NCBI RefSeq assembly: GCF_041146345.1
Contig: NW_027191405.1
Coordinates: 1-64,000 of the forward strand
DNA from: Neodothiora populina
Taxonomy: Eukaryota
DNA: 64,000 bases
Reading direction: 5' to 3'
Shown piece by piece: positions 37,846 through 64,000 of this stretch (position 1 is the stretch's first letter; each line of letters opens with the position of its first letter). The notes beneath the pieces were generated by a model. It did no database searches, had not been told where the DNA came from, and saw nothing but the letters and a program-made list of their open reading frames with translations. A program made the translations under genes and the position numbers.

Positions 37846-40800
37846 TCACAGTGCCATCAACTCGCGTATGCACGCCAAAGCCTGAACCTCTATCTGAAGC
37901 ACGAACGACCTCATCTTCTCCTCAGACATGAGACCTGCATCGCATCTAGCACCAAACACGATTCCGTGTTCACCTGGACCGATATCAACAAACAAATTGT
38001 GATTAGGAAGGAAGCCTGTAGCCAGCTCGTCAACAGCAGTATTGCCGCTTATGACGCTCGTGGACGAAAAGTCTGTGGGGACGCCGATCGGAAGTGGTTG
38101 CAGCAAATCTTCACTGCTCTGATCGCCCAGAAGGGAAGACTTATGCCACAAAAGGTTGACATTGGCATTGAAAGGTACAGTCGTAGCTGACGGGTCACGT
38201 GCCACAACAGCGTCTTGGAGTCTGCTTTGTTCATACGGCACACGCTGGCCCAGGATCTGTTGAATTTCACGAGTTGCTTGCAATGCAGCCTTTTGAAGCA
38301 CCTCTCGGAGTCCGAGAGGAAGCATGTTCACGCAAGGGCCAGAGACCTGATCAATGCGCTGGAAAGCTGCAGACCGTCCGAGCTGGAAAAAGCCGAAAAG
38401 TGGACTTTCAATATTGGTGTGAAGGGCGAGAGCGCGGGCAAAAGCCAGTAACAACAAGTGATGTGGCGAAATGCTCAGCTTGGAACATATGTCTTCAAGC
38501 TCTGCTATCACAACCCTGTCGCCATACACCATGCAAAAGTTTTGTCTCCGGTCATTCATATCCTCGGAGGTATTGTCGGACGGTATGGTAGTGTTCGAGC
38601 ACCCTTCGAGACTTTCTTGCCAGAACTTGGTCTCTGAAGAGTCCTTCAAGGAGATGGTATCGTAGACAAGCTCAGAGAATTGCGGTACTGGATCTCTGAA
38701 GGAGACTCCTTCGTAGATAGAAGCCAATTCGGCAATGAGTCGCGGCATTGTCCATGCATCGTAAGCCGCATGGTGAACCAGAAGCATTATTGCATCATCA
38801 TCCTGCGCCTGGATCAAACGCAATCTGAAAGGCAAAGAGTATAGATCAGATGGATGCGCAGCCTCGACGGAGGCTCTCGACTTCGCAGCATCGACTACGC
38901 ACGAGTCAGCTTGAACAACTGCAAAACCATCGGTATCCCACGATCCTGATCGTAACACGACCTGGAGAGCTTGAGTCTCATTAAGTGCCACGAATGTGGT
39001 CCTCAAAATGTTGTGTCTCTCTCTCAAGATGTGCCAAGCTTCACGCAGACGCTCTTTATCAATTCTTTCCCGGGTTTTATAGGTCCATGCAGGCTCATAC
39101 AACGTTCTTCCGCTCTTCAACCAGCTGATGAGGTGATACTCTTGTCCTGGAAGACATGGGAACACATCCTCCACCATCTCAGCTGGGAACTTGAGCTTGG
39201 TAATGGCACTCATGCGGTCATCTGGCGAGACCAGAGCGTTTCTCTCCTTCTCAACACCATTAGTCAAACCTTTTGTGGTCCTTTCTGCGGTAAGTTCACA
39301 GATCTTGCCCAAGCAGCCGCCTCGAAGTACATCTGCAACACTGAGACGCACGCCTGATTTCCTGCAGCGCGAGACGATCTGAATAGCCGCAATGGAGTCC
39401 ACTCCAAATATGTAGATGCTGGAGTCGAGCTCGATACGATCTGCAGAGACTTGAACGACTTCTGCCATTGCGGTTCTGATAGTTTCGGCGAATTCAGCTA
39501 CTGCCTCAGGATTAAAAGTCAGAGGAGCAGTTTTCTTTGCCTTCGTAGAGACTGGTAGAGATGATAATTGTTTTGGAAAGGCTGTTGAGAAGCGGCTTGG
39601 TTGATGGACGATGTCTCTGACTGCGTCTCGGAAATGATCCATGAAGGCCTCGAGTTTGTCGGGTTGAATAATCGACGACGCTCTCGCAACGATCTCCTTA
39701 TCAGTGTGTTCCACCTCAAAGTTCATCAAATACTCCGATGACACAGGTGCTTTATCCGTACTAAGTGAGTTACCAAGCACATCCAGACTGAATGGACCTT
39801 CGGCGCCAATCTTCGAGTACACGAAAAGACTCTCAATCAGCGGTGCTGATGGGTCGCTCGTTGTTTTGCGCCACGCCTTCTGCACATCGGCGAGGGACGC
39901 ATGTTGATGCTCGACTGACTTTGCATTCACATCATTGACCTTTCCAATCATGTCCTTATTGCTGATAAGATTATCGCCTAGAGTGACCCGGAGAGGGACG
40001 GTGTTGAACATGGGCCCAACAACGTCATGACCATCTCCCACTGAGTCGTGACGTGCGGCAACGACATGGCCGAAGACAACGTCTCTCCTCTCTTGGAGGC
40101 AAGCCAAAGCCTTGCCAAAAGCAAGGGCGCATACATCCTTGATATCGATGTCATGGAGTCTGCAAGTTTCGTTCATCAGATCAATCTCATCCGAGATCGT
40201 TCGAACGGCGAAGCGATGTCTCTCTGCTAGCGATGCTGGAGGGATTGGGCTTGCATCGTAACCAGACACCTGGGCGACCCAAAAATTTACAGCAGCTTCT
40301 GCGGTGCTAGTGATTCGTCTCGCTGCTTCATAAAATGGTGTGACAGGCGTAGGAGATGCGCTCACGTACCGCATCACAAGATGTTGAAACATTAGTCCTA
40401 GAGAGATTCCATCGTAAAGACTGTGGTGCATAGTCAGGACCATAGCGGTGCTTTCCGCCGACTTCAGTATCTGTATACGAGCCAGAGGCTTGTGAGTATG
40501 GATCCTTTCCTCAAAATCGTTTGAATTCGAGAGATGTAGCCAATGCTCGTAAGGGCTAGCAACCTCAAGTTCTTCCCAATCCGGACCTGCAGCGGGGTCG
40601 ACGATAGCGATCCAAGGGGTAGATGCATCCCGGAGCCAATAGAATGTGGTTCGAAGTATGTCCAGATCGTCAACAAGACTATCCCAAGCCGACCTCAGAC
40701 GTGACAGATCAACATTTTTGAGTAGTTCAAAAGCATGGTGATGCATGTACAATGCTCCTTCGGTAGCGAGTGACTGCGACAGCATACCAGCTTGTAATGG

Positions 40801-43800
40801 CGTGCACTCATAATATTGCAAGCCTGGTCTATTTAAGTCTGTGACACCCTTGGATTCGAGGAGCGAGCGAAGATTCTTCGCACTAGGTTGAACGTTGTTT
40901 GAGGACGGGTTGGACGAGAAAGCGAGTCGGGACTGGATGTTCAGGCAGAGAGATCCAACTCGATTGTGGCGGACGATTTCCGCAGAAGATACCTTCATGC
41001 CATTCTCTCGGAGATATTTCGCAAATCTAATGGCGACGATAGAGTCGATGCCAAGATGAATGAAGGAACTGTTCTTTTTGATGTCCTGGATCGGTATGGC
41101 GGTAAACGAAGACACTAAGCGGCGGACTTCTTGTTCGAGAGAGGACCAGTTGGCCTCATCGAAGGTCGGAGTCGTTAACTGGATACCTTTCTGGGATGAC
41201 TCTGGTAGTCCGAGCAACTGGACGAGACTTGCGCCCCCAGTCAGAATCAATAAAGTCAGCATCTCGAGTTTTTCCAAAAGTATATCAGCAGTCTCTGTGC
41301 TACCGAAGCTTTCTGTAAAGCCTGCCCTTACTATGAGTTTATCCTCCGGCACATTGGCCTCAAATTCCACAGCCAACGGATAGTCGACAGCGATTGTGTT
41401 GCTGGCTTGCTTGAGCATAGGGACTGAGACTGCTTCTGGCTGGATCCTGGAATAAGAGAAGAGAGAATTATAAAGTGCTCTATCAGCTTTGGTCCATGCC
41501 TGGATGTCTCTTGGGGAGACATGCTGAAATTCCAGTGATACTGAGGAAGAGTTTTGAACAGCGGTCAGTAAGTCGTCGATTGTCGCCTGAGGATCTTGGA
41601 TGCTGATACGTTGAGGTACAGTGCTGATGCATGGGGCGAGGATTGTATCCGCCCCCTCCACAGGTACCGTCCGACCAGATAAGACGGTGCCAAATATCAC
41701 ATCATTTGTGTCAATGGTCTTCGCCATGACAATACCAAATGCAGCCTGGAGTAACGTAGCGAATGTAAATTTGCGTGAGGCCACGTCAGAGTCTAGCTCG
41801 GAGAGAGGCGTCTCAAACATTCTCTCTCGTGTAGAAAGTGTGATGGTAGAGCTTTGTTCTAATGGCCAGAGTGAGGCATCTTGCCAATTGCTGAGTAGCG
41901 ATGTCCAATGCTTTTTCGCACGTTTATGGTCTTGAGATGCGATGTGCTCAAGGAGGGGCACCATGCTCTGGTGCTTGTCAGGAATATTGCTTTCGTAAAA
42001 TGATTGCACGTCCCGTAGCATCATGTCCATTGAGTTTCCATCGTAGAGTGCGTGATGGATTGAAAGAATGAGGCACTTCCCTGCCCCACTGTCACGATCG
42101 CACACATTCAGGCGAAGTGGTGGGATTTCTGCTATCTGCTCGATGATAGCTTTGCCACTGTTCGACTCGACAGAAGTAATGTCTGTGGTAGAAAGAGGCT
42201 TGTCGATGTATTTCCATATCGAAGGCATTGCTTCTGTGCTCAGAACAAGTTGCAGGAAGCTATCTTTATGCGACGCAAAGCACGTTCTCAAGATTTCGTT
42301 CTCCCGAATAACGGTTGACCAGGCCGCGTGAAGTCTGTCGATATCGATGTCCTCACCCAAGTCGAACCTGACATGGTTGATGTAGGCAACGTCCTCGGCT
42401 GTTGGGTCCTGATGCATTGATTGTCCGATAATAACATCCTGTAGTGGGAAGCAAGGTCTGACTGCTGTCACATGACCATTTGATGCATCGTTGCTTTGCA
42501 GGTAATCGTTCGCAAGGACATTCATCTGTTCCCGAACTTTATCTAAGGTTGCAGAGTCAGCAGAAGCACCTTTCCTTTGTAGTCCGGCAAGTGCTTCGAG
42601 AGTCGGGTTCTTCATCACCAGGGAGACACTACAATCGTAGCCAGCGGTGCGCAATCTCGAGAAGACGGTGATTGCAGATAAACTGTCGATACCTAGCTCG
42701 AACACAGTCGAAGATGGTGAGACTGATTTGGATCCATCCGGTATCACGCTACGAATTATCTGAAGCACGGCTTCCTCGCCTTCATTCAGTTCTTTGCGAT
42801 TACTCTCGTTGTCCGGTTTGGCATTGGATCCTCCAGGCATAAGTTTAGCAATGGAGAATCCGGAAAAGATACTGGTCAGCAACTTGTTATCCGCTTTGCC
42901 CGATGTCGCAGCCAGAGGGATGTAGGATAGAGGTACGATAAGATCTGGGACCATGTAAACAGGCAATGACTTCTGACATTGACGGCGAAGTGTGTCGTTG
43001 ACCTCAAGAATGGCCTCGTCGAGAATGACCGGGAGATCTCCGCCTCCTCTGCGCCTCGAAGACCCAGACTCGGCAATGAATGCCACCAGTTGAGTTCTTG
43101 AAAGTTCGGGGTGTTTCAAGATCAATGCCGTAGTGTCGATGGGTGAGGATGCAGCCATACGTAAGCCCTCAGAAACCTCCCCGAGCTCGACTCGCTGTCC
43201 CCTAATTTTGACCTGATCGTCTTTGCGCCCCAGAAATTGAATGTGATCATCCGGCATGAGCCGAACAATATCGCCAGTACGATACATCCTCTGGCCGTGG
43301 AAATCATCAACAAACCCTTTAGCATCAGGGCGATTGAGATAGCCGTTGGCAACAAAACTACCAGTGAAGCAGAGCTCACCGGACAACCCTCTCAAGACAT
43401 AAGAATCCGTTCCGGGAGTAAGCACATGAGCTTGACAGTCGCCAAGGGGCTTTCCGATGTCCCTCATATCAGTGTCGGAGAAGACTCTTGCAGAATTACA
43501 GCCAACGGTTGCTTCAGTTGGACCGTACGCGTTGATGAGTGTAACGCGGTGATGAGATGCCCAAAGCTTCTTCGTCTTTGCTGACATTTTCTCACCTCCG
43601 ACTGAAAGGTAGACGAGATCTGGTGTGTCATCAGGTTCTAGTCCGGTCTGATCGAGCAAAGAAGGCACAAAGCTGGCATGAGAGATGTGTAGAGATGAGA
43701 GCGCAAGCGGAAGGTCGTCTAACAACATGGATCGAGGTGCAGTAACAGCACTGAGCCCATGTCGCCAAGCTAAGAACATTTCTCCAATGTGAACATCGAA

Positions 43801-46800
43801 TGCCCTGCTCGCCAGGCAAAGATATTTACCCTTGCCACCAAGTTCTACTGTAGCGGGGCAGGCGCCGCAGATGAACTCAGACTGACCTTCAACAAAAGAG
43901 CTGAGATTTCCCTGACTGACGAGAACACCTTTGGGCTTACCGGTGCTGCCCGATGTGTAGAGCAAGTAAGCGTTGTCGTCCGGCACGCCTTGTCGAGGAG
44001 GGTCTGTGGAAGGGAAACCCACGAGGGCCCTCTGGGTGATGTCATATTCAACGTCAATGGTTTCGCAACTCGCTGGAATATATGCCGGGTCGAAAAGGTC
44101 GGGATTTGTGAAGACTAAGGCAGCGTCACTATCCTCAAGCAAGAATCCTTTCCGCTCTATTGGAAGACTCTCCTCGATCGGCAGGTAAGTATTACCAGAC
44201 TTGAAGATTCCGGCAACGACGGCGTAAGAGATCAAGGTACGGCCTAGACACATTCCAATCATACGATTTGAGACGCTCTTTGCTAATATCATGTTCGCCA
44301 CGCGATTAGCCTCGTTGTTCAGCTGATGGAAGGTCCAAACATCAGTGCGAGTCTCTTCTAGCTCTATACTCGTTGCTATCTCGATGGCCTCCCACTCCGG
44401 ATTGGTGTGGGCCCAATGTTCGATCCACGAGGTTGGGTGTGCCTCAATTGGACACTTTGTGTCATGGTTGATAGCAGACACAGACACAATGTCTGAGGGA
44501 AAGAACTCCGACAGCGACGATATCTTGCAGTGGGTTTGGTCGATCATGGCATTGATTATAGCATCTAGGCCGCGTAAAAGAATGTTCTGCTGTTCCTCGG
44601 TAACTAGCTGGTCGGCAATCGAAAGTTCAACCAGAGGGTGGGAGTCTGAGTCTTGCCAGATGTTACACGCAATCGGATGCTCGACTACGATATCGTGGGC
44701 ATCACCTAGGCTCTGCCAAAGCTCTGAGGGGTCCTGCGGTGACGCATTCGTATTTGGATGGAAGGCGAACATCGCAGGATAAAGGTGCTTACTAGTGGGA
44801 CGGTTGAGCACACCTTTGATGGTTGACGGTCGAATGTTGCGGTGCTGCCAGGCAGACTTCACAAACTGGTCTTGACGCACTATAGTCTCGAGCACAGTGG
44901 GCTCGCGACCGAACAGGATAGGGACGACGTTCAACATGGGCCCTACAATGTTCTCTAACTTATCGTCAACAATACGCAGCGACATGACTTCTGCATATAA
45001 AGCTTGAGCGGTTTCGAGAAGCTCAGTAAGAAGTAGACCCCAAGCAGTACGTAGGATAGTGACGAACGAGGAACAGCCCATTTCTTGCGCAGCTGCTCGC
45101 AATTTCGAAAGGGTTACTGTTAGTCTCAGTACAGTCGTCCGGTGTGTCAATTGCTGGTCGTCGTTGGCCATCTGCTCGAGCGAGGTTTCGTCGTCAAGAT
45201 CTTCTAGTGACTTCTTCCAGAAGTTCACGGTCTCAGTCCTGTCAGCATCAAGAGTAGAGTCAACTGCCAGTGCGTCCCTCAACTGATGCCTCCTAGCAGA
45301 GCCAAGACCATTATACTCGGCCTTGACATCCGCTGCTATCATCTCGAGAGAAGGTCCATCGTAGATCGAGTGATGGATTGTCAACATCATCGTCCTCTCG
45401 CTATCTCTCCCAAAGATGTCAAGAGCCCAGAGGGGGTGCTTGAAAAGCGATTGATGATGTCTGGAAGCAATCTCCTTCATCCGAGCCCCCGTTACAAGTT
45501 TGACGTCAGAGTAGGCATCATGTTCCTTCCAATCCACGCTAGCTTTAGCATAAGCAATCTGAACCCAGGAAGAGCCACCGCTCGAGTCTGGACTTAAGAA
45601 TGCCTTCGGCAGGAAGCCAACGCGCAAGGACTCGTTACGGACAGCTACACTCTTCCACGCAGCTCTGAGCTCATGCAGATCGACTTCTGCGCTTAATGCG
45701 AACAGATGAGTACTCCAGTACGCACATGGCTCTTTTAGAGTTTCACTCAGGAGACTCTCTTGCAGTATAGTCGTTGGCATGACGTTGAAGTTGATGTCTG
45801 AGACATGTTGCTTCACCTGGGCATGAAGACGCTTGTTGAAAGACTGCAGAGCATGTGTCGCATTCCGCGATGTGACAGTTTCGGCATTTGCAAGGCGGAC
45901 AAGATCGGCAAGATTGCGGCACTTAAGTGCTTCTGCTATGGACAAAGAATAGCCAAGTGAGTTGATCTTCGGAACAAGGCGAATAGCCCTGATAGAGTCG
46001 ATTCCGAGAGCTGGAAGACTGCTCGTGGGTTTGATGCTCCTGACCGGTATGCCAGAAACCTGGGATGCTACCTCTACTATGCCTTTGTTGTCAGTAAGCC
46101 ATTGTAGGACCTCGCTGTCTTCGGCTCCACTATCTGAGCTGACGGTCTCCTCCCAGACCGCAACATCGACAGCGTGATATGCTCTTGTCAATGATGATCG
46201 ATCGACTTTCGCGGAGGCTGTCTGTGGGATTTTAGGAACGACGACGAATAAGCTAGGGACCATGTAGCCTGGAAGAACGTTTCGCGCATGTTCTGCGACT
46301 GCTCGAGCAACTTCAGCAGCGGCGTCGGAGGTCACAGGTTCGTTGCTTCTCGTCGCATCCCCAAGTGACGGGCATGCAAGGAATGCCACTACTGAAGTTC
46401 CGCTCTCGTCTTGTCTCTTGCAGTTCAGTACTTCGACCCGTTCGACTGAGGGATGAGCATCGCGAAGGAAGAATGTGATCTCCCCTAATTCAACTCGGAT
46501 GCCACCTAGCTTGACAAGATCATCGTTACGTCCGATAAAGTCCAAGGTACCATCAGACAATTGCCTTACAATGTCTCCTGTCAAGTATACACGTTCTTCA
46601 AGCTTTTGGTTCCATACGAACTTGTTTTTGGTAATTTCGGGGTTCTTCCAGTACCCAGGGCTGACCTGAATCCCGGACAATGCAAGCTCGCCAACGCCAT
46701 TTTGTGGAACTAGATGTCCATCATCAAGGACGTAAGTACCTACCGATGGCAATGGTACACCGACGTTGGAGCTTGAATGATCACTGCCTCCGTCACCGAA

Positions 46801-49800
46801 TTGTGTGAGCGTGGAAACAACGGTTACCTCTGCGGGTCCATAGGTATTGAATGCTCTTCGCCCCACGCCATAGTCATTGGCTACTGACTCGGTGAGTTTT
46901 TCGCCGATCATTGTCACTACCTCAAGCGTTTCAAGGTTGCTTGAGGGTACTGTGGCAGCGAACGCAGGAGTGAGATGCGCATGAGTAGCGTGAGTTGCGT
47001 TTGCAAGCTCTGCAAACGTTTGCAGCATTATCTCCCTTGTACTGGAGATAACAACTCCACCAAGAGTCCAAGTATAGAACAAGTCTTGCACGAATACATC
47101 GAACGTATACTGGGAGAACTGCATGCATCGGACCGTTCCACCGGTCACATCTGAGGGTATCACTGCAGCCAATGCTTTCATGGCTGTAGATGCTGAGCGA
47201 TGCGTGATAGGGACACCCTTTGGCAGTCCCGTAGTTCCACTAGTGAAGATCAGATAAGCCAAGTCGTCAGGACCAGCTATGGATCGTACGATCGGTGGTG
47301 TCAAAGGCGTTTCTGCGCGAAGGGCAGATTGACACATGCTTATATCGAGCATCTTGATGCCGGATGGCAGCATGTCGCCATCAATTTTTACGGTCGATCC
47401 AGTTGTGATCAACAACTTGCTGCCTGTCTGCTTCATCACAGTTTGCTGTCTTGCAGGTGGTGCATATGGATCGATAGGGCACCATGCAGATCCAGCTTTG
47501 AGTATACCAAGTACGGCAATATACAACTCCGGACACTTCTCCATACAGAGAAGGATTGGCTCTCCTGGTGCAGGCCCAAAGGTTGCAAGCAAGTGCTCGG
47601 CCAGGCGATCAGCCAGAGTATTCAATTTGCCGTACGACCATTCAATGCTGGCTTCTTCGCCATCATCAAGCGACTGCTTGAATATTAGTGCAGTGTTATC
47701 AGGGCTCTGAATTGCAAAATTCTCAAAGGCCGAATGCAAGAGATCTTGTTGACGTGATAGGGTTATCGATGCATCCACGGGCGTCTGGGAAAGCAACTCG
47801 CTCCTCACTGCAAAGCGAGTCTCTGAATATGGTTCGTCCGGTCTATCGCAGATATAATTGATGTAATCATCAAGCTGACGAAGCATAGTTTCAGCAGCTC
47901 CACTATCCATGTGGGACTGCTTCCATGTTGCACGAAGTCGTAGAAATCCAGATTCGGTAGGCCAGACTTCTACCATGATAGCAAAGTCATTCTCCATTGA
48001 AGGATACTCAACGCGAGACCAGATCTGGTTTCTTTCTGCATTTTCATCGAATGACTGGAAAGCTAGGAGAGTGTCATACGGAAGTCGGCCGTCGATCGTG
48101 GTCAATCCCCCCAACGGGATCTGAAGATGAGGTAGCGCGTTCACATTGGCTGATGTCAATGCCGCGACAACCTCTCTGTTGGTAGCTCCACGCTTGTGAT
48201 CCTCCGATAGTCTGACTGGTATAGTGACAAATGTAGGGGCCACACAGCTCGCAGTCGCTTGTACCAACCTATCTGATACAACACTGCCAAACGAAATATC
48301 GGAGGTAGGCCCTGTGTATGAAAGAAGCACGGTCGCCCACGAAGCTTGTAGGAGCGAGAGGGGCGAAGCTGTAATGGCCCTCGAAGCCGCCTGCAATTTC
48401 TGAAGCGTGATCTTGCCGACGAATTCAGTACAGCCCGCACGCCTTGCTGCTGTACCGACGCGAGTGGCTGTGAGAGTAGGGAATGGCGTCGGAGAGAAAT
48501 CTGAAAACACATCGTTCCAATACTTTGCTGTGGTCTCTGTCGCGTATGCAAAGTGGCGTTGGACCGCGGTTCCAATATCAGTGCGCTGCGCATGTTCCCT
48601 TGAAAGAACACAGTCTGCCACGTCTTGCATGAGAAGCTCCAATGAACCACCATCGAAGATACCGTGAAACATGCTGAGTACGTAAGCGGTGCGGGTCGAA
48701 GAAGAGATGACAGACAGTGTCAATGGAGGTCGTTGAAGGGTGATCGAGGCTTCTGCATCGGCACAAGCCTGGCTCACAATTGTATCCCAGTCTCTGTCGT
48801 TGGCGTCCAGGTATTCCAGTATCTTCGACGAAGTCGCTTCGCTTGACCTCTTGATTACACATTGAGCAAAGGGAGAGATATGATCATCGATGGCCACAAA
48901 GGCAGTACGCAAGACCATGGGTCGGCTCAAGGTATCTTCCCAGGCCTGCAGAACAGCACTGGTATCCTGGCCAGTTCTTTGGTAGTAGACGGAGTGATTA
49001 ATGTAGTGTTTGTTCTCTCCTGCAGCCAGACTTCTGTGGTAACTAGCTAACATACCGGACTGGGTGGCGGTTGTTGGTAGAACAACCTCGATATCCTCTA
49101 TGCGTAGATCAAGCTGTTCGCTAACATACTTCGCATGTTTCTCACTGTAGACGGATAGAAGCTGCTGTACTTTGCTCTCATCAACATCACTATTGATGCT
49201 ACTCATGCCGCATAGGTCGGCTAGGGACCGTGGCGTCCGGGATTTTAGGATGTGAGCGACTGTCAGGTCATGCACATCCTGATTTCGGAGCTCTTGCAGT
49301 AAGCGAACAGCCCGAAGACTGTCGAGTCCCATGGAGAAGAGATCGGTATCAGCTGTGACCGTCGTCACGTCCGTGTTGGCGACCTTGGCGATGCACTGCA
49401 TGATCTTTTCGAGCATGCTACCAGGGACGACATCTGAGCCTTGGCTAGATGAAGTGACTTCATGCTTTCGCAGGCTGTGAGGTACTATTGTTGAAGTCCA
49501 CTCTTCGTTGATGGTACGGTCCAATGCCTTCCTGTCGGTTTTGCCGGACCTGGATCGCGGCATCTCGCGGATTATATGATATCGTGACGGATGCATGTAT
49601 TTTGGAAGAAGTCGATCTGCCGCGGCCTGACAATCTGCTATAAGCAATTCGGATTCCACCTCAATATTCAGCACTAAGCAGGCAATAACTTGTTCGCTGC
49701 CATGTCCTTGAGGGTTGTGCTGGTGGACCACAGCCACAACATCAGAGACACCTGAAACAGTGCTTAAGGCGCTCTCAATCTGACCTAACTCGACTCTTCT

Positions 49801-51904
49801 ACCACTCAATTTGACCTGGTCAGTGTTCAGACGGCCTAAGAAATCAACGACAAGCGTTCCTGCCCTATCTCTGACGACTCTTGCCTTGTCACCAGTTCTG
49901 TACAGCCTGCCATACTGGGGACTGGTCACGAATGCAGCCGCCGTTTGATCAGGTCTGTTCACATAACCCATGCTGACTTGAGGTCCACCAATGGCCAATT
50001 CTCCTGCAAAGCCAATGGGCACCGGAGTTGGGATTTTATTCGCCGGATCGATGACAAGAATCGAAGCTGTCTCTAGGGGATATCCAATGATCGAACCCCT
50101 TTGATCCACGGAGAACTCTGGCACTAGTGTGCAGTTTATTGATGCCTCTGTAGGGCCATAAGCGTTGAGGAGGCTGCTAAGCTTATCAGGTCTAGAGGAT
50201 GGGCTAGGTGGGCGGCTTCTTAGAGGCGAGTCCGATGCGAAGTTCTGGATCACTGTAGTATTGAGCTTCTCGCCCATGGTCCAAAGATTACGCAAAGTTG
50301 GAACTTTCTCCGGTCGTAAAGAAGTGGCCATGCTGGGCGTTGCCATCATAATCGTCGTAGATAGTTTAGTGACGATGAGCTCAGGGTCTGTGAGCAACAA
50401 CTGCCGATGTGCTGAACAAAGGGTTCCGCCACAGGTCCACGTTACATATATCTCCATGATGGATGGATCGAAAGTAGGCGCTGCGAACTGGAACCATCTA
50501 AATCCCCTTTTGGACATAGCTAGACTGATGTATTTTGCATGTGATGCTATGGAGCAGGCTGCAGAGATGTGCGAGATCTGCACGCCTTTGGGTCTGCCAG
50601 TCGACCCACTTGTGTACATTACATATGCGAGGTCGGTCTCAGCGACCTTCGGAAGCTCGAAGGCAGGCGTGTTGGAGCTTAGATCGAAGGATTGGATGAA
50701 TCTCGCGACATCAAAGGACGTAGGGAGTTCATCAAAGTCCGCATACCACGCATCCCATGGGTGAGCAAGCAGTTTGGGGCCATCAACAAGCACCAGTTGA
50801 GCACCAACTTCCTCTACGATTGTCTGAAGGTGATCAGAAGGGGCATCCACTGGTAATGGGCAGAACGCAAATCCAGCCTTCAGAGTGGCCAGCCACGAGA
50901 CGTAAAATGCTGGAGACTGCGACATATACGCAGGAACAATGATCTGATCATTGTTATTTCGAAGAGTAACACACTCACGAAGTTGCAGTGCAAGCGCAGT
51001 AGTCAAATGGTCAAGTTCCGAGTACGTGTATGTTACATTGGATCCGATCGTTCCTGATTCCGCTGAGGACAAGAAATCCAGGGCAGGTCGATCTGGATAC
51101 TGGCTGGCTGATCGCTGAAATCCAGCATGTAACAGCGCATTTTGTTCGGATGAATCTGCCAGATCTTGTGCGATCCTTGGTGGCCTGCTCAATGGAGGAT
51201 GGTTCAAAACGGACAAATTGTCATTACTGAGCTCTCGCACATTTGCGCAAGCTCGGTTCGCCGTTTTCGAGATTTGGTATATCAATACATTGAACAAAAC
51301 CTCCGCGGCTTCAGACTCCAGTAACCTCTGCTGGTATAGCAAGACCAACTTCAATTGCGTGGCATGGTATTGCACCGAAAATGGCTAAAGCTGGGTCAGC
51401 AAGGCCATTGCCGCGATGGATTTGACGATAACATACCGATTGAAGTAGCAGGGAAGTAGCAGAGGTGTCAAAGTTATCTGGATCAGCATGAAGTTCGATT
51501 CCAAAATCCGCGAGTTCCTGATCTATGCTTATCTCGCTGAGGTCGATGGTACACGGCAGCGATTCGCCACCAATCTGCGCAGCAGCCTGGCCCTCAGAAA
51601 TAGCAGCTTGTATCTTGTACACCTTGTCGGTATGATGTGGGCCCAATCGCTGAGCGAACTGATAAGATACTTCGGATTCACTGGTCAGTGTGCCAATGAA
51701 GCGAGCGAAGCCCTGCAATACTCCATCTTTGCTTCTTGGATAACTCTCGTTAGTAGAAAACTGATACTCGAGTCTTTCGCGAGACACATCCCTAGCCTGG
51801 TCTGTTGAGCTGGTGGCGTCGAGGCTCGTGACTCTACATTCAGCACGAAGGGTATCTAAGTCAGGGAAGGCAGTACATGAAGAAAAGCCACTGAACGACG
51901 ACAT
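37846..51904 (-). CDS. sidC: Ferrichrome-type siderophore NRPS (SidC/NPS1 lineage), A-T-C-A-T-C-A-T-C-T-C-T-C; intron 51436-51385
   Basis: Three A domains (YTSGSTGRPKG, FTSGTTGLPKG, YTSGSTGKPKG), five T motifs (GLDSL, GIDSI, GIDSL, GIDSI, GVDSI) and five C motifs (FHGIFDG, HHSIYDG, HHALYDG, HHSLYDG, HHAAYDA). A GTATGT..TAG intron links the upstream exon (MSSFSGF...) in frame. Confidence 0.93.
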
Positions 51905-52317
51905 CTTGCGGACAGGCAACGGATGATCTCGACGTGACCTTTGTTCCTATCGTGGAGTTCAGTAGCAAGTATGCGAGTTGATGAAACTCGAAAATTGCTC
52001 CTATGTGGTCGTAAAGAATGATCATCTTGATAGTCAGACCATATGGTCAACCTACTGTTCTCTGTACCTAATTCCCGATGGCTTTCGCATCATTGCCGCT
52101 ATCGGTGACAGTCACTTTGATCGTGGACCTTGCTAGTCAAATCTGTCGATCATCAGTCGACAGCGATGTATCCGCACTGGCCATTGCGTAGCATCGCGAG
52201 CGAGTACAACTGCCCACGGGCACACTTGCATCGAGTAAGGCAGCAAACGGTGCGTGATGAAGTTGCAGCTCCGATTGACGCCAAAGTTTTCCCCACTACG
52301 CGTGGGCTGAGAAAAAG

Positions 52318-52326
52318 TTATCAGAT
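52318..52326 (-). promoter_or_regulatory. SreA-type iron-repression GATA box (ATCTGATAA) in the NRPS/ligase divergent promoter
   Basis: TTATCAGAT is an exact reverse complement of the ATCWGATAA consensus. Confidence 0.7.
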
Positions 52327-52926
52327 CCGTCGGTCTTGGTGCGCCACGTGGTGTGTGGCTTGCGCTAGTGATAATGCTACCGCTTGAGCCAACTTGTCGG
52401 CTTTGGCGGGAAGTTTACGACGCTCCCTCCACCCTTGATACCGAACAGGAGGAGGCTATTCATGTCGCATTATTAGTTGCACACTTGCGATACAACCTTG
52501 TCGGTAATGAGATCAGCTATAGCCAACGGGACATCGCGGTGCTTGTGATCTGACACTGCCGAGGCAAGGTGGGAAAAAAACATTCATGCGGCTATGAGCG
52601 GACTTACTACTTCCGACCACTTTGGATCGATGGTACGTTTTTTATCTGTTGATCTAAGCGATGCATCGACTCCGTTTGTGAACCTTGTAGCGCCTCGTAT
52701 AGACCCTCACCATTCGGCAACTCTAGGGCGACGTTGAAGGATCTATAAACCACTATCCCTGGAGGGGCACCATGCACTCACTCGTTATCACACGGAACCG
52801 ATTCCATGCTCACTCCGAACTCGGCATGGTCTGCTCTCTCATTGTCGATACTGTTTGACGTGATCTGCATTTTCTAAAGCAAGTGCCCAGTGACTCTACT
52901 CTACCTAGCCAACCACGTCTACAGCT

Positions 52927-55169: not shown

Positions 55170-56724
55170 CTACAACATTGATTGATTGCTTACTTGCGAT
55201 CCTTGCTGATTCTGCTCCTTGTTGAGAAGACGATCCGAGGATGCAATCACTCTATGTGCCTGTTCGGCTACATGCAAGAACTCCTCGTCACGAGACTGTG
55301 ATTGAATGTCAGTTCGAGGTGCATCAAAATGAATTCTTCGTTTCGGGTAGTGAACGTACCATGTGATCCCCAAAGGAGATCAGGGACCAAATACCGCATC
55401 CGTTGTGCAAGACGCCCTTCTTGATATTGACTTGATAGTCACGATCCACACTGACGGCGCCTTGCTCCATCAAAGCAGAAAGGGAAGATAGCAAAGACTC
55501 GCCCTGCTTGCGGTAACCCGTAGCTACAACAACCTTGTCGAATGATCGCTCAGACTTCCTGACGGCGCCAGTCCGTGGAGATTTCAACAGCAAACGGACA
55601 TGAGGTTGAGTAGAGCTTGGTAGTATCTCTGCGCCAATGACTTTTGCCAAGGGCTCGATACCAAATCTCCACTTACTGGGATCATTTTCACGGATCTTCT
55701 GAGCATAGTCCATGTCATATAGGCGCTCGAGAAGCTCAAGCGATACAGGACTGGCGTTATACCCCTCCTTCGCGAATATAATCTTCTTGCGAAGCTCAGG
55801 AGGGAAGAACGCAAAATCCGAGGGAGGAACATCAACCAACGTACGAGAGCTGGAACCATGTTAGTGACATATTCCAGGATCACTACCGTCGTTAATGACT
55901 TACAATGCTGTCTGGTCGACTGGTCGGAGTGAAGAATCTTCGATGAAGAAGGTTGATCGGTGGCCACCATAATGCAATTGCAACTCTTCAAAGATCTCGG
56001 CGCCCTCTTGAGAAGCTCCAACTACGGCTACGTCTGGTAGGCGGCCGTTATGTTGAGCAAAAAGCTCATTAGATGAGTCAGAGTGAACGACATATCTGGA
56101 CAGCTCCGGAGTCGCGAGAGCTTTGGGGATATGAGGCGCTAGACCTGTTGCGACCACAAGTCTCTTGGAGTTCAGAGTGATCAAATCACCCCGCGCAGTA
56201 TCTCTGTAGAGAACCGAGAAGCTTTCCACCTGCGAATCTGCCGACTTCCTGATGGGATCAATCCTCAGAACCTCGGCGCCATAGTTCACCCAGCCTAATC
56301 TCTCTATGTGTTCCGTTACCCATACCAGATAGTGACTCATGAGCAGCTTTGAGGGATGTAGACTGGACGCATTAGTGAAGGCCACAAGCTGGCCTGTCGT
56401 CTGCAAGTAGTTGACAAAGGTGAACTTTGATCGCGGGTTTTGTGTGGTGATCAGATCCCGAAGGAAAGGTGTCGCTACCTTGTTGTCTGGTAGAGACTTT
56501 GCCGGTGCCCATGTGAAGGCATCTTGACGCTCGAGAAACTTGACACTCCTCCCCGAATTGCGATCTGCCAGAGCTGCGGCTACCGCAAGAGAAGACAAAC
56601 CAAAACCAACACCCAGAAGGTCTATAGATTGTTCGGGATCAGCAGATCTTCCTCTGGGCCTTGCAGCCTGTCGGCTCGATGTCTCCATACTGCGCCTTTC
56701 AGAAGTTGTCACTGTGGCTGCCAT
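55170..56724 (-). CDS. Divergent L-ornithine N5-monooxygenase (SidA/PvdA)-fold flavoprotein; introns 55903-55850 and 55359-55296
   Basis: DLLGVGFG, FLERQ, NPRSKFTFVNYL, VVATG, VAVVG, VVVATGY and DRDYQV follow SidA order. Both introns are canonical and splice in frame to an intact ORF ending QSML. Confidence 0.85.
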
Positions 56725-57297: not shown

Positions 57298-57492
57298 TTA
57301 TCAATCTGATAATTAGAATCAGCGGGTCATTTCTGCGAAGGTTCAGCTAGGCGAAACATGGTGGGGCTCGCGTTGGCTCTAGCGCGGCGCTTCGACGCGA
57401 GCTCTTCCATATTAGACGTTACATCCATGGTTCTGCCCACACACTTGACCCGTCAATGTGCAGGATGAAAAACTTATCAGTGGATCAGATAA
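57298..57492. promoter_or_regulatory. Paired GATA/SreA boxes upstream of the SidA-like gene
   Basis: TTATCA-ATCTGATAA at 57298-57312 and TTATCAG-TGG-ATCAGATAA at 57474-57492; two exact ATCWGATAA matches. Confidence 0.72.
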
Positions 57493-57918: not shown

Positions 57919-60900
57919 CTAATCTCCCAGCACTTGGTGCAATGCATTTGTGCGATAAGTCTCGCTCTTGGACAGCAACTCCTTGTGCGTGCCCCTTGCA
58001 GTGCAGTTGCCATCTTCAATCACGAAGATGCAATCTGCTTTCTCGATCGTGTGCAATCTGTGTGCAATTGCAATCACTGTGATTCCCTTCCTGACATTCT
58101 CGAGTGCATCTTGCACCATCTTCTCACTTTCCGAATCAAGGGCACTTGTACTCTCATCTAATAGTAGCAAGCGTGGCTTCCTGAGCAAGGCTCTGGCAAT
58201 CGAAAGGCGTTGCTTCTGACCACCAGAGAATTGTGAACCATTAGGACCACATCGAGTGTCATAGCCATCTGGGAGTGCAGCAATAGTGTCATGTATGTTG
58301 GCCATACGACATGCGTTCTCGATTTCGGCATCAGTGACATCGTGGCCAGGGCGAGCGCCGAGAGACAGGTTGAAGCGAAGAGTTCCCTCGAACATCACAC
58401 TCTCCTGGGGAACCAGGGAGATAGAGTCTCGGAAGCTCGAGTCGCAGAACTTGCCAACGTCTCGGTTGTCAAGCTCGACCCTGCCGGAAGTTGGTCGATA
58501 GAATCTTTCCAACAGGGCGATGATCGTCGATTTGCCTGCTCCACTAGGACCCACAAGAGCGCAGAATTGACCGGGCTTGATGTCCATCGTCAATCCCTTG
58601 AGAACTTGCATATTAGGCCGGGCTGGATATGAGAAGCGCACATCGCGGAAAGTGATCCTAGCACCTGTGTCAGGGGCAGCTTTGGCGATTGCCTTCTCGC
58701 CCATAGAAGACTCCAAGTCCTTCTCGTCGAAGCCTGAGCTCGACGAGCTGTCTAGACGCATGTCAGGGGGCATGTTAGACCGCTCCGTCTTGCCGATCGC
58801 TAGTAGATCCAGAATTCTAGCAGCAGAGACCCTAGACTTTGAGAAGTCCGGGGCCAAAGCAAAGAGCTGCCCGCAAGTTTGAGCGCTGAACAGCAGCGCG
58901 GGCAAAACGATGAAAAATTGAGTCTGACTGTATCTGCCTTCGATGATGTTCTGAGAACCCCACCAGTATGCGAGAGCATATACCAGGTTGCTAACACTGT
59001 AAGCAGAGGCGAGCCAGACGTTGCTCCATAGGATAGCCTTTCGCGTCTCGTCGTATGGCGGCTTGAGTTCGCGATGGTAAACCGCAACTGCCTCATTCTC
59101 CAGAGAGAAAATCGAGATAGTTCTGATAGAATTGACTGCTTCAACAGCTACCCCTGTAGCTTTTGCAAAGGCTTTCTGATGCTTCGCGTGGAATTTCGCA
59201 AACACCCGTAGACGCATCATACCGGCACCGATCAAAACGGGCAGTGTAGCAAGTAACACAACAGCTATCCTCCACGCGATGATGTGGGACAAAATGATAC
59301 CAGCAATAGTGTTGACGATGATAGAGAACAAGGTCCCCAGAATTGTGCCGGTCAAACCAGCCAAGGCATTGGCATCACTTGTGATGAAAGATAGCAGCGT
59401 AGCAGGCGTTCTACCCTCGGATTCGTGCCATTGTAGGTCTTGACCAAGTAAAGTGCGAAGGGATTTGACACGGATCTTATACAGAGTGTTCTCCGATACA
59501 AGCCCGAAGAGGGATCCGCTGGACACGTTGGCGAAGAACTCGATAGCGGCTAGGATGAAGAACATCAAACCAAAGAATGCTCCGTCATGTCGAATAGATT
59601 CGGCGGTATTACAGGTCGAGAAGCTGCTGATAGTGTGACCGAAAATTACAGCCTCGCCAGAATACGAACCACCGACAATGGCGCTAGACGTGAGAGCAAT
59701 GAGAAGATAGACAGCCTGTGATCTCGTCTGAGACACAATTCCTGTGATGGTTGACCACACGCCACGCTTTGAACCTGCTGATGAGTCTGCCGGTGCAGGA
59801 GCTGACAGGGCCTTTTCGTCCTTGTCATTGGGATCCATTTCCTGAGCAAGGCTTCGGGATTCAATCTTCTCGGAAGGCTGGTTAAATTCTTCCTCAACAA
59901 CCGACATTGCTTCGTCGACTTGGGTGATTTCCGTGTCGCTGATGGACTCGCCAGATGCTGGATTACTAACGGTCTGAAGTCTAACCATACTCGCGTAGAC
60001 ACCGTCTTGAGCAGTCAATTCTTGGTGAGAGCCTTGTTCAATGATCTTGCCACTGCGCATGACGATGATGTTGTCGGCGTTCTTGATCGTAGATAAACGA
60101 TGAACAATAGAAATAGTAGTGCGTCCAAGAGTCGCTCGCTCGAGTGCCCCTTGGATAAGACGTTCACTGCGAGAGTCAAGCGATGATGTTGCTTCGTCGA
60201 GGAGAAGAATTCTTGGTTCACGGACCATGGCACGTGCTAGAGCGATTCTTTGCTTTTGGCCACCACTGAGCTGACTTCCAGCAGCACCTACGGAGGTTGC
60301 TAGACCATGTTCCAGACGACTGATGAACTCAAGGGCGTCGGCAAGCCTAGCAGCTTCTTTGACTTGATCAACAAGGCTTTTGATCACATCATCAGCGGAA
60401 TTGAGAGCGTCGTGAATGTTCTGACCATCCTGGACGTTCTTGACGAGTCGAGCGAGAGAACCATCCATGATCTTCAAGACCTCATCCTCTGAAGCCTTGC
60501 GAGAGTTAATCAGGCCGTGGGCAATGTTCTCGAGAATTGATCGATCCAGCAGCGAGGGGTCCTGCTGCACGGTGCCAATGCAACCTCTAAGCTGTCTGAC
60601 ATTGAGTTCGCGCACGTCAACTCCATCGAGTCGGATCTGTCCTTCTGCTGGGTCATACAATCTGCCAGTGAGAGCAGCAACTGTAGACTTGCCACTTCCA
60701 GATTGTCCGACAATGGCAGTATGTTTGTTTGCTGGTATGCTCAAGGAGATACCTTTGAGGACAGTGGTATCTGGACGGCCGGGGTAGGCGAATGAAACAT
60801 TCTCGAAGTCGATTTGACCTCCAACAGACTCGATGGGCTTGCCCACTGTAGTGGAGGTACCATCAATCAACGAGTTGCGGTTGATAGCGCCATTCAATTT

Positions 60901-61991
60901 CTCGGCGGCAGACGCGGCAGAGCCGAAGATCTGCAAGAAGGGGGCTACTTGACTGAGAATAAAGGAAGCTTATCTTGTTGTCAGTATAGTTCCACAATGA
61001 AAAGAAACGGACGATACATACCATCGATAAGCAGGAAGATGACTGTGTAGACTGCACCGACCTTTGAAGCACCAGTGCCACTAGCCACACCAGCAGCAAT
61101 GTCCCTACTGCCCTGCCAATATGCTAGGGCGTTGGTAGAATACGCAATGAAGTACAACAGACCGAGCTGAACCGCAGCGGTGATCGCCTTCTTGAAGGCT
61201 TCTTTCCTGGCAACGTCGAGATATTCGGCAAACTTGGCCTCTAGTCGGGCACCTGCGCCGAATGCTTGAACAAGTTGGATCTTCGAAAGACTCTCAGATG
61301 CAATGGACGTGGCAAGTGCAATGTTATCTGAAACGCGTCCACTGTACTTTTTGATGAAGTGAGAACCAATGAATGTCATGAGAAAGTACGCGGGAACCAG
61401 AGAAACAAGCATGCCGGCCAGCTTAGCATCCTTGATGAATGCCACCACGTAGGACGCGACGAAGTAAGACACACTTCCGATACAGATACCGACCTTCTCT
61501 GAGGTACCGGTCTGGATAGCCTCGAGATCCGTGGACAAGCGAGACGAGACATCGCCGGCTGGCAAAGTGTCGAAGAATGAGAGCTCCTGGCGTAAGAGAC
61601 TTCGAAGGTATTTCTCACGAAGACGTCGGACAAGTCGCTCTCCAAGAAGACTCCAGCAACAACTGTGGATGTAGATGAAGCACCAATTGGCGATGGTGAC
61701 ATAGATGACTTGCAGAACTTTTGTCCGGACCTGGTGCTCTAATGTCGAGTGATCGGCTACAGTATCGTTGCAGCCGGTGCTGTTCAAGTTGTTGATAAGT
61801 TCACCAAAGAGGATACCGAGCAAAGGAAAGGGTATTCCGGTTGCAATGCCACCGATGACACCTCCACAGAGCAATATCACGTCGACGAAAGTGTATCCAG
61901 GACTCAACAGTAGCCGGAAATACGCAGTTGCCTTTCTCCAGGACTCGTGCAGTCTGCCCACCTTAGGGGCATCTTCTTGCTTCTCTGCCAT
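57919..61991 (-). CDS. ABCB (MDR/P-glycoprotein type) full-size ABC exporter; intron 61021-60969
   Basis: TMD-NBD-TMD-NBD layout with Walker A GQSGSGKS and GPSGAGKS, signatures LSGGQKQR and FSGGQKQR, and Walker B LLLDEATS and LLLDESTS. Confidence 0.95.
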
Positions 61992-62340: not shown

Positions 62341-62349
62341 TTATCAGTT
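62341..62349 (-). promoter_or_regulatory. Near-consensus GATA box in the ABC/acyltransferase divergent promoter
   Basis: TTATCAGTT (reverse complement AACTGATAA) has one mismatch to ATCWGATAA. Confidence 0.45.
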
Positions 62350-62903
62350 CGTCTGATTATTTTTCATCAGTCAAAGCGCCAACACATTGCGCTAAGCGAT
62401 GTCGTTATGTAATCCACGTGCCCCACTTAGGCAGAGCACAGTACAACGAAGATCTTCAACAATAAAGGCAGCAGCAATGTGCAGCTAATCGCAAAGACCA
62501 CCGCGGTCCCTGTCGATACAGTATCTGCTATACCTATTAGGCAAAGTATTGTAGAGCGGAGATCCTCGATGGCATCATCGCAACAATACTCTTGCCGAGC
62601 TTACGTCAAGCAGTGAACCGACAAGCAACGTGATGTTCGGAACATTAGCGGTAGCAGACAGCTCTGACATTTGTGTGACTCGGTATTGCACATTGATAGT
62701 CCATCAAACATCGTATCGGTAACCGGGTGTATCATGCCGCATCATCATTGCACCGACTGGAGAGCGCTGCCGGTAGGAAGTATTGGGCTACGTCGATCAA
62801 TCACATGAAATGAAAGGTAATTCATAGGTAAAGCTTTCAATCTTGTGATTCATTTTTATTCATTGTGATTTTGCTTTGGTCTTTCCTCCCATCACATTTC
62901 AAG

Positions 62904-64000
62904 ATGTTCAGCCCGACGGTGCCATCGACGTTGTGCCTTCCGCATCCATATCTCACAAGTTATCGTGTCGAGCCGTCCACAAAAGCGAAAGCCACCGACC
63001 AATACTCGTGGCTGAGGATATCTCACTCTGCGGCAGACACGCCCTCGCAAGGGAGGCCGTTATCTGCACCCTTACATGGTGACATAGAGTTTACGCTTCC
63101 ACAAGATCCAGAAGACAACGACAGCGCGCCACCACTGGCAAACAACACCTTTTGGGCGCGCATTCGAAGGAGTCCGGCAGCGGTCATCAGATGGGACAGG
63201 GAAAATGTGAATCTCGGCCATTTGTGGTTGCTTATATATGCCACTTTCACTCTGAGGCCAGATAATGAATATTATCGTCTTGTCATGCAGGATGCAAAGA
63301 GCGAGGATCTTGCAGAAGAATTAAAGACTGTAGGCCTCGCGATCCAGCATCCTGTGGCGGCAGACTCCTCAGATGAGGGGAGCAAAGAGCTAGTAGTCAT
63401 ACGTAGCACATTCTGGCAAGGAGCCGGGTCTCCGTTCGGCGCAAGGCCAGCGTGGGCACCAGATACAACAACTGTGAAGACCACGAAGAGACCGCTCGCC
63501 GCATATCCCGTGCTACCGACAGACTACACGTTGAGCACTAGATTTCCAAAGGCAAACATCCATGCCTTTCACCCTCGTAGACCCCAAAAGCCTACGCCTG
63601 GAGAAGTCATATACTCTAGATACATCCCGCACCTTGGCGAGAACTTCAACGTGATTGCGTTGGACTACCATAATCCGGAGCATCTCAATCTCTTCCACAC
63701 GTGGCAGAACGATCCTCGTGTATCAGCAGGATGGAACGAGACAGGCACGCTGGAGGAACACAGACATTATCTTCGCACACTGCACGAAGACCCGCACACC
63801 TTGACAGTGCTCGCGAGATTCGACGACAACTTCTTTGCCTACTACGAGATCTATTGGGCCAAGGTTAGTGTTTTCCAGGAGACATTCAATACCGAAGTAA
63901 TTTGCAGCTGATCAGAATCATAGGAGGATCATTTCGGAGTCTACTGCGACGCAGGCGACTTCGATCGCGGCCGCCACTGTCTAGTCGGAAACGACCGCTT
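62904..64000 (+). CDS. sidF: N5-hydroxyornithine acyltransferase (SidF/IucB/AlcB GNAT family), truncated by window end; intron 63864-63923
   Basis: LPHPYLT, NNTFWARIRRSP, FWQGAGSPFG, HPRRPQKPTPGEVIYSRYIP, FHTWQNDPRV and YYEIYWAK|EDH...DRGRHCLVG motifs. SidF versus SidL is judged from memory of the N-terminal motifs. Confidence 0.8.

What the first reader, a model, noticed from the sequence alone, without database searches (positions are those of the whole stretch)
37846..64000. Hybrid siderophore cluster: ferrichrome NRPS with fusarinine-type acyl supply genes and an ABCB exporter
Established: in Aspergillus, SidC makes intracellular acetylated ferricrocin, while SidI/SidH/SidF supply anhydromevalonyl-hydroxyornithine to SidD for secreted fusarinines. 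Seen: here a SidC-architecture NRPS shares a divergent promoter with a sidI-like gene and clusters with sidF-like and ABCB genes, with GATA boxes in each promoter region. Inference: the product is a secreted cyclic hexapeptide with mevalonate-derived acyl groups (ferrirhodin, ferrirubin, asperchrome or ferrichrome A class) or a new variant. No sidH-like hydratase is in the window; it may lie past 64000 or be absent, which would change the acyl group.
Basis: partly seen in the sequence, partly recalled or inferred. Interest (0 to 1): 0.75.

Follow-up and report, generated by a model that had tools for sequence, protein, structure and literature searches.

The report
Siderophore cluster with substitute dehydratase
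A fungal gene cluster for an iron-scavenging peptide of a known type, which seems to use an unrelated enzyme for one step and may thereby set the shape (trans instead of cis) of the peptide's side chains.

Summary
The cluster is real: a type II (SidC/NPS1) ferrichrome NRPS, sidI, ABCB and sidF, plus a degenerate sidA-like gene the finding omits.

The 'hybrid' layout is not new. sidI sits next to sidC in A. fumigatus, a probable orthologue (C. fulvum NPS9) was described in 2014, and NPS1-type enzymes already make secreted siderophores.

The new part lies 348 bp past sidF, outside the window: a peroxisomal hot-dog (MaoC/hydratase-2) dehydratase with an intact catalytic motif, while no crotonase sidH is nearby.
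- It belongs to a small clade (7 of 46 hits) with an altered segment beside the catalytic His.
- By accession order, six of the seven lie in this cluster and the seventh lies near a sidI.
- The NRPS A3 pocket has Gly239 like SidN (large acyl groups), not Leu/Val like the Aspergillus SidC hits.
- The genome also has a full sidD/sidH/sidF cluster and an NPS2/sidA cluster.

Best reading: a secreted anhydromevalonyl-ferrichrome. Stereochemical bookkeeping predicts trans (ferrirubin-type) from this enzyme and cis from SidH. No product or activity was shown. The scan's notes held nothing on this dehydratase.

The parts
37846..51904 (-). Type II (SidC/NPS1-lineage) ferrichrome NRPS, 4668 aa, intron 51385-51436; A1 code DPMMWMAINK, A2 DVQHTITVVK, A3 DVGSSGAVGK
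   Evidence: Pfam 3 A, 5 C, 5 T; model identical to database protein P0047; codes; best PDB hit of A3 is SidN 3ITE, E 2e-173
52318..52326 (-). SreA-type site ATCTGATAA in the NRPS/sidI divergent promoter (51905-52926)
   Evidence: consensus from PMC4162504
52927..54714 (+). sidI-like mevalonyl-CoA ligase, 575 aa, intron 53984-54043, C-terminal AKL (PTS1)
   Evidence: next genomic paralogue only 35% identical to a named SidI
55170..56724 (-). Degenerate sidA-like flavoprotein gene (OXR1-like), 478 aa, 3 exons; GFGLSSL and WAPAKSL where the genome's canonical SidA has GFGPASL and WHAGMQ
   Evidence: PF13434; model and motifs; canonical sidA lies on contig C3
57304..57492 (+). Two exact SreA-type sites (57304-57312, 57484-57492) upstream of the sidA-like gene
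   Evidence: 0 of 500 shuffles reach 2
57919..61991 (-). Full ABCB transporter, 1339 aa, intron 60969-61021; 52% identical to the ABC of the sidD cluster
62904..64000 (+). sidF-like GNAT transacylase, 443 aa, intron 63864-63923, C-terminal AKL; cut by the window end, it runs on to C14:64295. Directly behind it and wholly OUTSIDE the window (C14:64644-65831, + strand, L004 2644-3831) lies the MaoC/hydratase-2 dehydratase gene: 325 aa, 3 introns, catalytic YRLNGDFNPLH, C-terminal SKL; candidate SidH substitute
   Evidence: sidF; 41-55% identical to the sidD-cluster SidF, 28-44% to the SidL-like gene. Dehydratase; model identical to database protein P0001; clade and synteny

Best explanation
An iron-repressed pathway for a secreted ferrichrome-type siderophore with anhydromevalonyl arms. 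Steps: (1) The canonical SidA on another contig hydroxylates ornithine (inferred by homology). (2) In the peroxisome SidI makes (R)-mevalonyl-CoA (inferred by homology). (3) The clustered hot-dog hydratase-2 dehydrates it in place of crotonase SidH (inferred from position, PTS1, intact motif and synteny). (4) The clustered SidF transfers the acyl group to hydroxyornithine (inferred). (5) The NRPS joins Ser/Gly residues and three of these units into a cyclic hexapeptide, A3 loading T3-T5 as shown for SidC (inferred from PMC10192304). (6) The ABCB protein exports it (inferred). Hydratase-2 has the opposite facial sense to crotonase, so the arm should be E (trans, ferrirubin-type), while the sidD/sidH cluster makes Z (cis) fusarinine from the same SidI pool. 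Shown here: genes, motifs, pocket residues, clade, accession-order synteny. Not shown: any activity or product. About 0.6 for the pathway with this dehydratase, about 0.4 including E geometry.
For: Three neighbouring enzymes end in PTS1 (AKL, AKL, SKL), matching the need for SidI/SidH/SidF to share a compartment (PMC3709128). No crotonase in the window or the next 28 kb. The dehydratase keeps D-x4-H and the hydratase-2 fold. 7 of 46 homologues carry T-x6-QPTP in place of TPEPGxxMGFGG and form one clade (SH-aLRT 97, quick tree). By consecutive accessions the order NRPS/sidI/x/MaoC holds in two Zasmidium cellare assemblies, Cercospora beticola and C. kikuchii; NRPS and MaoC are 3 apart in Septoria linicola and Fulvia fulva; sidI and MaoC are 2 apart in C. 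berteroae and 9 apart in Rhinocladiella mackenziei. Control: 0 of 80 metagenome loci of the generic family carry the motif and none has an NRPS, sidI or sidF match in the DNA held (32 loci of 10 kb or more). A3 has Gly at 239 and shares 11 of 17 SidN pocket residues, against 7-8 for the four Aspergillus hits, which have Leu or Val there; the genome's own NPS2 has Leu. The acetyl and fusarinine jobs are covered by separate NPS2/sidA, sidL-like and sidD clusters. The CIP bookkeeping gives Z for crotonase on (R)-mevalonyl-CoA and E on (S)-HMG-CoA, matching fusarinine and ferrichrome A, and E for hydratase-2 on (R)-mevalonyl-CoA (enzyme senses recalled).
Against: No metabolite, expression or enzyme data. 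Coprogen (trans) producers such as N. crassa and P. chrysogenum carry crotonase SidH orthologues clustered with siderophore genes (PMC3709128 Table 1), so trans arms can arise without this gene in the cluster. Botryosphaeriales keep NRPS+sidI adjacent with Gly239, yet their dehydratase hits are of the generic type and, where both were seen, lie on contigs of other lengths. Synteny rests on accession order, not DNA; some assemblies do not show it (Fulvia KAK4612227/KAK4611859, UJO23646/UJO23844, WPV21015/WPV21456; C. beticola PIA numbers), and five of the seven clade members are one family. Gly239 is common (50 of 79 fungal hits), most with unknown products, and PMC10192304 warns that fungal A-domain codes do not predict well. 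No SreA site lies directly before the dehydratase. SidH from the other cluster is also peroxisomal and could supply cis units.
Confidence: 0.6

Rival explanations
1. Secreted cis-anhydromevalonyl ferrichrome (ferrirhodin-type): SidH from the sidD cluster supplies Z-anhydromevalonyl-CoA in the shared peroxisome and the MaoC gene is a bystander or a minor helper.
For: The genome has a crotonase sidH with SKL. SidN A3 accepts cis-AMHO in vitro although its product is trans (PMC3311397). Ferrirhodin is made by a SidC homologue in F. sacchari (PMC4162504).
Against: It does not explain why a specialised MaoC clade tracks the cluster across several genera. C. fulvum keeps the MaoC next to the NRPS yet lacks an NPS6-clade NRPS (PMC3895014).
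Confidence: 0.15
2. Aspergillus-like arrangement: the NRPS makes acetyl ferricrocin or ferrichrysin, and sidI sits there but serves only SidD.
For: sidI next to sidC is the A. fumigatus state. It is the only close SidI match in the genome and the sidD cluster lacks one. A1/A2 codes equal those of Aspergillus SidC hits. SidF can use acetyl-CoA (bioRxiv 2024.08.20.608788 and PMC11751504, search listing only).
Against: The cluster has a second SidF, its own ABCB and a dehydratase. A3 has Gly239, not Leu/Val. NPS2 with Leu239 and a sidL-like gene already cover the acetyl type.
Confidence: 0.12
3. A different acyl arm: methylglutaconyl (from HMG-CoA, ferrichrome A-like or its Z isomer), undehydrated mevalonyl, or an arm further changed by the sidA-like flavoprotein.
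For: C. fulvum NPS9 cluster was likened to the U. maydis ferrichrome A genes (PMC3895014). The sidA-like gene has no assigned role. F. graminearum NPS1 uses malonyl, with a candidate acyltransferase beside it (PMC4290682). A3 differs from SidN at 6 of 17 pocket positions.
Confidence: 0.13

Closest known systems
Cladosporium fulvum (Fulvia fulva) NPS9 cluster (PMC3895014)
   Same: Type II NRPS, homologues of SID1 and FER5/sidF, induced by iron depletion. The Fulvia 'sidC' hit is 60% identical over the A3 region; taking it to be NPS9 is my inference.
   Different: The passages, section 17 and supplement text I saw name no dehydratase or sidI in the cluster and no product. C. fulvum lacks an NPS6-clade NRPS; this genome has sidD.
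Epichloe festucae SidN (epichloenin A)
   Same: Type II NRPS with an adjacent ABC transporter, secreted, trans-AMHO; A3 is the best PDB hit, with 11 of 17 pocket residues shared.
   Different: Only the ABC gene is clustered with sidN (PMC3642064); the product is an octapeptide with Gln; the source of trans-AMHO is not identified in the passages read.
Fusarium NPS1 (malonichrome) and F. sacchari ferrirhodin synthetase
   Same: Three-NRPS layout (NPS1, NPS2, NPS6) in which the SidC orthologue makes a second extracellular siderophore, clustered with an acyltransferase and transporters (PMC4290682).
   Different: Malonyl or cis-anhydromevalonyl arms; no hydratase-2 mentioned in the passages read.
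Aspergillus SidI/SidH/SidF route and the sidC-sidI locus
   Same: Peroxisomal ligase, dehydratase and transacylase; sidI beside sidC.
   Different: SidH is a crotonase-fold enzyme that feeds SidD with cis units; here the clustered dehydratase is a hot-dog enzyme and A3 has the open pocket.
Peroxisomal enoyl-CoA hydratase 2 (MFE-2 domain, 3KH8, 1S9C, 7MKU)
   Same: Fold (TM about 0.7), D-x4-H motif, PTS1.
   Different: The 12-residue segment after the catalytic His is replaced (QPTP clade) and the gene lies in a siderophore cluster.

Membership tests
Type II ferrichrome synthetase (NPS1/SidC) | A-T-C x3 followed by T-C x2 | tested here: met
   definition from PMC3642064 and PMC3895014
Type II ferrichrome synthetase (NPS1/SidC) | A3 related to hydroxamate-activating domains | tested here: met
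   SidN A3 best PDB hit, E 2e-173; fungal hits named SidC or BcNRPS3
Type II ferrichrome synthetase (NPS1/SidC) | Makes a cyclic tris-hydroxamate peptide | not testable with these tools
   needs LC-MS and deletion
Aspergillus ferricrocin SidC (acetyl type) | Closed A3 pocket (Leu/Val at 239 in the four Aspergillus hits seen) | tested here: not met
   Gly239; the link between this position and acetyl products is inferred, and the products of those four species were not checked
SidI mevalonyl-CoA ligase | Orthology to SidI and a peroxisomal signal | tested here: met
   65% and 72% to named SidI proteins, paralogue 35%, AKL end
SidF transacylase | Acetyltransf_8 domain, closer to SidF than SidL, PTS1 | tested here: met
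   acyl-CoA preference not testable
SidH | Crotonase (ECH) fold | tested here: not met
   The clustered dehydratase is MaoC/hydratase-2; the true sidH is at C14:2002848-2003453
Enoyl-CoA hydratase 2 (hot-dog) | Double hot-dog fold with D-x4-H catalytic dyad | tested here: met
   the loop after the His is poorly modelled (pLDDT under 50 at 208-226)
Enoyl-CoA hydratase 2 (hot-dog) | (R)-specific hydration, and activity on mevalonyl-CoA | not testable with these tools
   needs enzyme assay; family stereospecificity is recalled
SidA ornithine N5-monooxygenase | Canonical FAD and substrate motifs | tested here: not met
   The in-cluster gene has altered motifs relative to the genome's own sidA
SreA regulon | ATCWGATAA in promoters | tested here: inconclusive
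   Exact in two of three promoters, one mismatch in the third, none before MaoC; no expression data

The most novel reading that the evidence does not exclude
A dedicated hot-dog hydratase-2 clade has been recruited as a non-homologous replacement for SidH and acts as the stereochemical switch of fungal hydroxamate arms. From one SidI-made (R)-mevalonyl-CoA pool, crotonase SidH gives Z units for fusarinine and this enzyme gives E units for a ferrirubin-type peptide, so one genome makes both geometries with two unrelated folds. This would name the biosynthetic genes for a trans-AMHO hexapeptide ferrichrome in Cercospora, Septoria, Fulvia and kin.
Probability: 0.4. Interest if true: 0.72.

Novelty: new variant of a known kind. 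Interest (0 to 1): 0.55.

Why it matters
How fungi choose cis or trans anhydromevalonyl arms is left open in the papers I read. PMC3311397 suggests that selective precursor synthesis, not the NRPS, decides it, but names no enzyme in the passages seen. This cluster offers a concrete candidate and a two-enzyme assay to test it. Arm geometry is a plausible factor in which transporters and competitors can use a siderophore (inference). The cluster is shared with several crop-pathogen genera; in C. fulvum NPS9 is iron-induced and expressed before leaf penetration. An E-selective mevalonyl-CoA dehydratase would also be a useful biocatalyst. The cluster layout by itself is ordinary.

Tried and rejected
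1. Plain GATA counts as evidence of iron control: near background.
2. 'Indels' beside the catalytic motif seen in MAFFT: an artefact. Pairwise alignments show a same-length substitution.
3. Metagenome scan for the QPTP clade: none among the 80 loci kept of 430, so no DNA-level synteny. The loci were used only as a control.
4. Expression: no RNA holder listed. The single run laid was probably DNA, with three short contigs. No evidence either way.
5. Siderophore-iron MFS near the cluster: no match to the sidD-cluster transporter in the window or the next 28 kb. The right flank continues with an FAD monooxygenase, Ap4A phosphorylase and bZIP gene, the left with a PHO4 transporter; I do not count these as cluster genes.
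6. The careful tree did not finish; the quick tree is cited.
7. Paper searches for a MaoC or hydratase-2 role in siderophore synthesis: searches returned nothing; two searches returned one paper each, seen as listing only; two searches listed 7 and 8 papers, of which I opened four (PMC3311397, PMC3642064, PMC11380514, PMC6941272) without finding such a role. The library lacks most subscription journals.
8. The SidN structure paper was not available; its pocket list is taken from a review.
9. No complex prediction was run, since binding is not claimed.
Full report
SETTING. The window is bases 1-64000 of contig C14 of a 24 Mb fungal genome. Database proteins identical to my NRPS and dehydratase models are labelled Neodothiora populina, AAFC00_005049 and _005054. 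Contig coordinates continue the window's.

OBSERVATION. The NRPS (37846-51904, minus) has 3 A, 5 T and 5 C domains in type II order. A ligase (52927-54714) diverges from it across 1022 bp. It is 65% and 72% identical to two proteins named SidI, while the next paralogue is 35% identical. Then follow a sidA-like gene that the finding omits (55170-56724), an ABCB transporter (57919-61991) and a sidF-like gene (62904-64295). Plain GATA boxes are near background: 200 in the window against 178.6 expected, and only one of three promoters is enriched. The SreA consensus ATCWGATAA (PMC4162504, passages) is a real signal: 3 exact sites in 3127 bp of promoters against 0.06 expected, none in the left 37.8 kb, a fourth inside the NRPS gene.

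WHAT IS NOT NEW. A. fumigatus SidI and SidC have consecutive accessions (PMC3709128 Table 1; PMC3895014 supplement), so the pairing is ordinary. The genome has a canonical sidD/sidJ-like/ABC/MFS/sidH/sidF cluster near the other end of C14, an NPS2-type NRPS with ABC and canonical sidA on C3, and a sidL-like gene on C13 (these labels are my assignment from Pfam hits and recalled cluster layouts). The sidD cluster has no sidI, so the ligase here probably feeds both routes. A three-NRPS layout in which the SidC orthologue makes a second secreted siderophore is known in F. graminearum (PMC4290682, passages), and SidN with its ABC neighbour makes secreted epichloenin (PMC3642064, passages). The C. 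fulvum NPS9 cluster, probably orthologous, was described with SID1 and FER5 homologues (PMC3895014: passages, section 17, supplement part 1 of 2; 6 of 15 supplement pages are pictures, so gene labels in its figures may say more than I saw).

WHAT IS NEW. No crotonase lies in the window or the next 28 kb. Instead, 348 bp after sidF and on the same strand (C14:64644-65831), there is a 325-aa MaoC/hydratase-2 gene with YRLNGDFNPLH and SKL. Its model matches hydratase-2 structures (pLDDT 78; TM about 0.7). SidI, SidF and this protein all end in PTS1.

THE CLADE. Of 46 homologues, 7 replace the segment after the catalytic His (TPEPGxxMGFGG in most of the others) with T-x6-QPTP, and they form one clade (SH-aLRT 97, quick tree). 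5 of the best 150 representatives at 50% identity carry the motif, so the group is small.

SYNTENY. Accession order gives NRPS/sidI/x/MaoC in Zasmidium cellare (KAF2170493/494/496; KAK4496852/851/849), Cercospora beticola (CAK1363027/026/024; WPB02118/119/121) and C. kikuchii (GIZ44158/159/161). NRPS and MaoC are three apart in Septoria linicola (KAI5361486/483) and Fulvia fulva (KAK4612884/881; WPV36402/405). sidI and MaoC are two apart in C. berteroae and nine apart in Rhinocladiella mackenziei. Limits: this is accession order, not DNA; three Fulvia pairs and the C. beticola PIA numbers are not consecutive; five of seven members are Mycosphaerellaceae (recalled); no Fulvia or Septoria sidI was named among the best 120 of 3183 hits. 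As a control, none of 80 metagenome loci of the generic family has the motif or an NRPS, sidI or sidF match; four show only ABC matches and one lies near a true sidA and ABC.

THE A3 POCKET. The code is DVGSSGAVGK against DVGGGGVIGK for SidN (read), with 11 of 17 pocket residues shared (list from PMC11253843, passages). The four Aspergillus hits have Leu or Val at position 239 and share 7-8; the genome's NPS2 has Leu. Among 79 fungal hits 50 have Gly, 16 Ala, 10 Leu, 2 Val and 1 Cys. Botrytis NRPS3 has Ala, and ferrirhodin is the one siderophore isolated from B. cinerea (PMC6941272, passages). A1 and A2 codes equal those of Aspergillus SidC hits, which points to Ser and Gly (PMC10192304, passages); that paper warns that such codes predict poorly in fungi.

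MECHANISM AND GEOMETRY. Crotonases handle (3S) and hydratase-2 enzymes (3R) hydroxyacyl-CoA with the chain trans (recalled). Bookkeeping on that basis gives Z for crotonase on (R)-mevalonyl-CoA, as in fusarinine, and E for crotonase on (S)-HMG-CoA, as in ferrichrome A; it gives E for hydratase-2 on (R)-mevalonyl-CoA. It also fits hot-dog hydratases acting on the tertiary alcohol citramalyl-CoA (recalled; itaconyl-CoA hydratase appears among the fold hits). This would explain why a genome with sidH keeps a second, unrelated dehydratase. PMC3311397 (passages) suggests that precursor supply sets trans geometry in Epichloe. Against a simple rule: coprogen makers have clustered SidH orthologues, and Botryosphaeriales have NRPS+sidI (KAK0664701/700; KAF2138336/335) with Gly239 but no QPTP protein among my hits.

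VERDICT. Member of the type II ferrichrome synthetase clusters; a new variant by its dehydratase. About 0.6 for a secreted anhydromevalonyl-ferrichrome made with this enzyme, about 0.4 including E geometry. Rivals: cis via SidH 0.15, other acyl 0.13, acetyl 0.12. I found no paper linking a MaoC protein to fungal siderophores, within a library that lacks most subscription journals. The scan's notes held only one on the sidA-like gene. Also read as passages only: PMC13462969 and PMC11380514. Interest 0.55.

Noticed in passing
window 55170-56724 (-): Intact but degenerate sidA-like gene inside the cluster with two exact SreA sites upstream; resembles the OXR1 type of Histoplasma clusters (name from PMC11380514; the likeness is my recall). 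Role unknown.
   Followed up: partly
G000 C14:1985848-2005700 (L007-L009): Canonical sidD, sidJ-like (DUF1749), ABC, MFS, sidH, sidF cluster near the opposite end of the same contig, with SreA sites and no sidI.
   Followed up: partly
G000 C3:2318700-2342300 (L019-L021): NPS2-type NRPS, ABC transporter and canonical sidA; last A domain code DVLDIGFIGK.
   Followed up: partly
L089 523-10964: Metagenome contig with ABC, true sidA, three SreA sites and a generic-type hydratase-2 about 2.5 kb downstream; its close relative L114 shows no such neighbours in the DNA held. May be chance.
   Followed up: partly
protein P0002 and P0269: Rhinocladiella mackenziei has a QPTP-clade dehydratase nine genes from a second sidI copy, with branch placement inside a dothideomycete group; possible transfer, untested.
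   Followed up: no
proteins P0062, P0065, P0066: Phyllosticta orthologues have the closed A3 pocket (Leu239), unlike other Botryosphaeriales, and no Phyllosticta protein was among the best 120 SidI hits; possible return to acetyl arms.
   Followed up: no
window 52927-54714: The database model of the ligase (P0219) is 428 aa; my spliced model is 575 aa and matches homologue lengths, so the public annotation looks truncated.
   Followed up: partly
window 23536-24186 (-): DIT1/PvcA-family (isocyanide synthase-like) frame near GMC oxidoreductase and zinc dehydrogenase genes.
   Followed up: no
window 17138-18544 (-): Frame with repeated PAN domains; the 487-aa frame at 21445-22908 has no Pfam match.
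   Followed up: no
G000 whole genome: Besides this gene, the only hydratase-2 match is a 31% hit on C6; a generic stand-alone peroxisomal dehydratase was not found, so this copy may be a repurposed one.
   Followed up: partly
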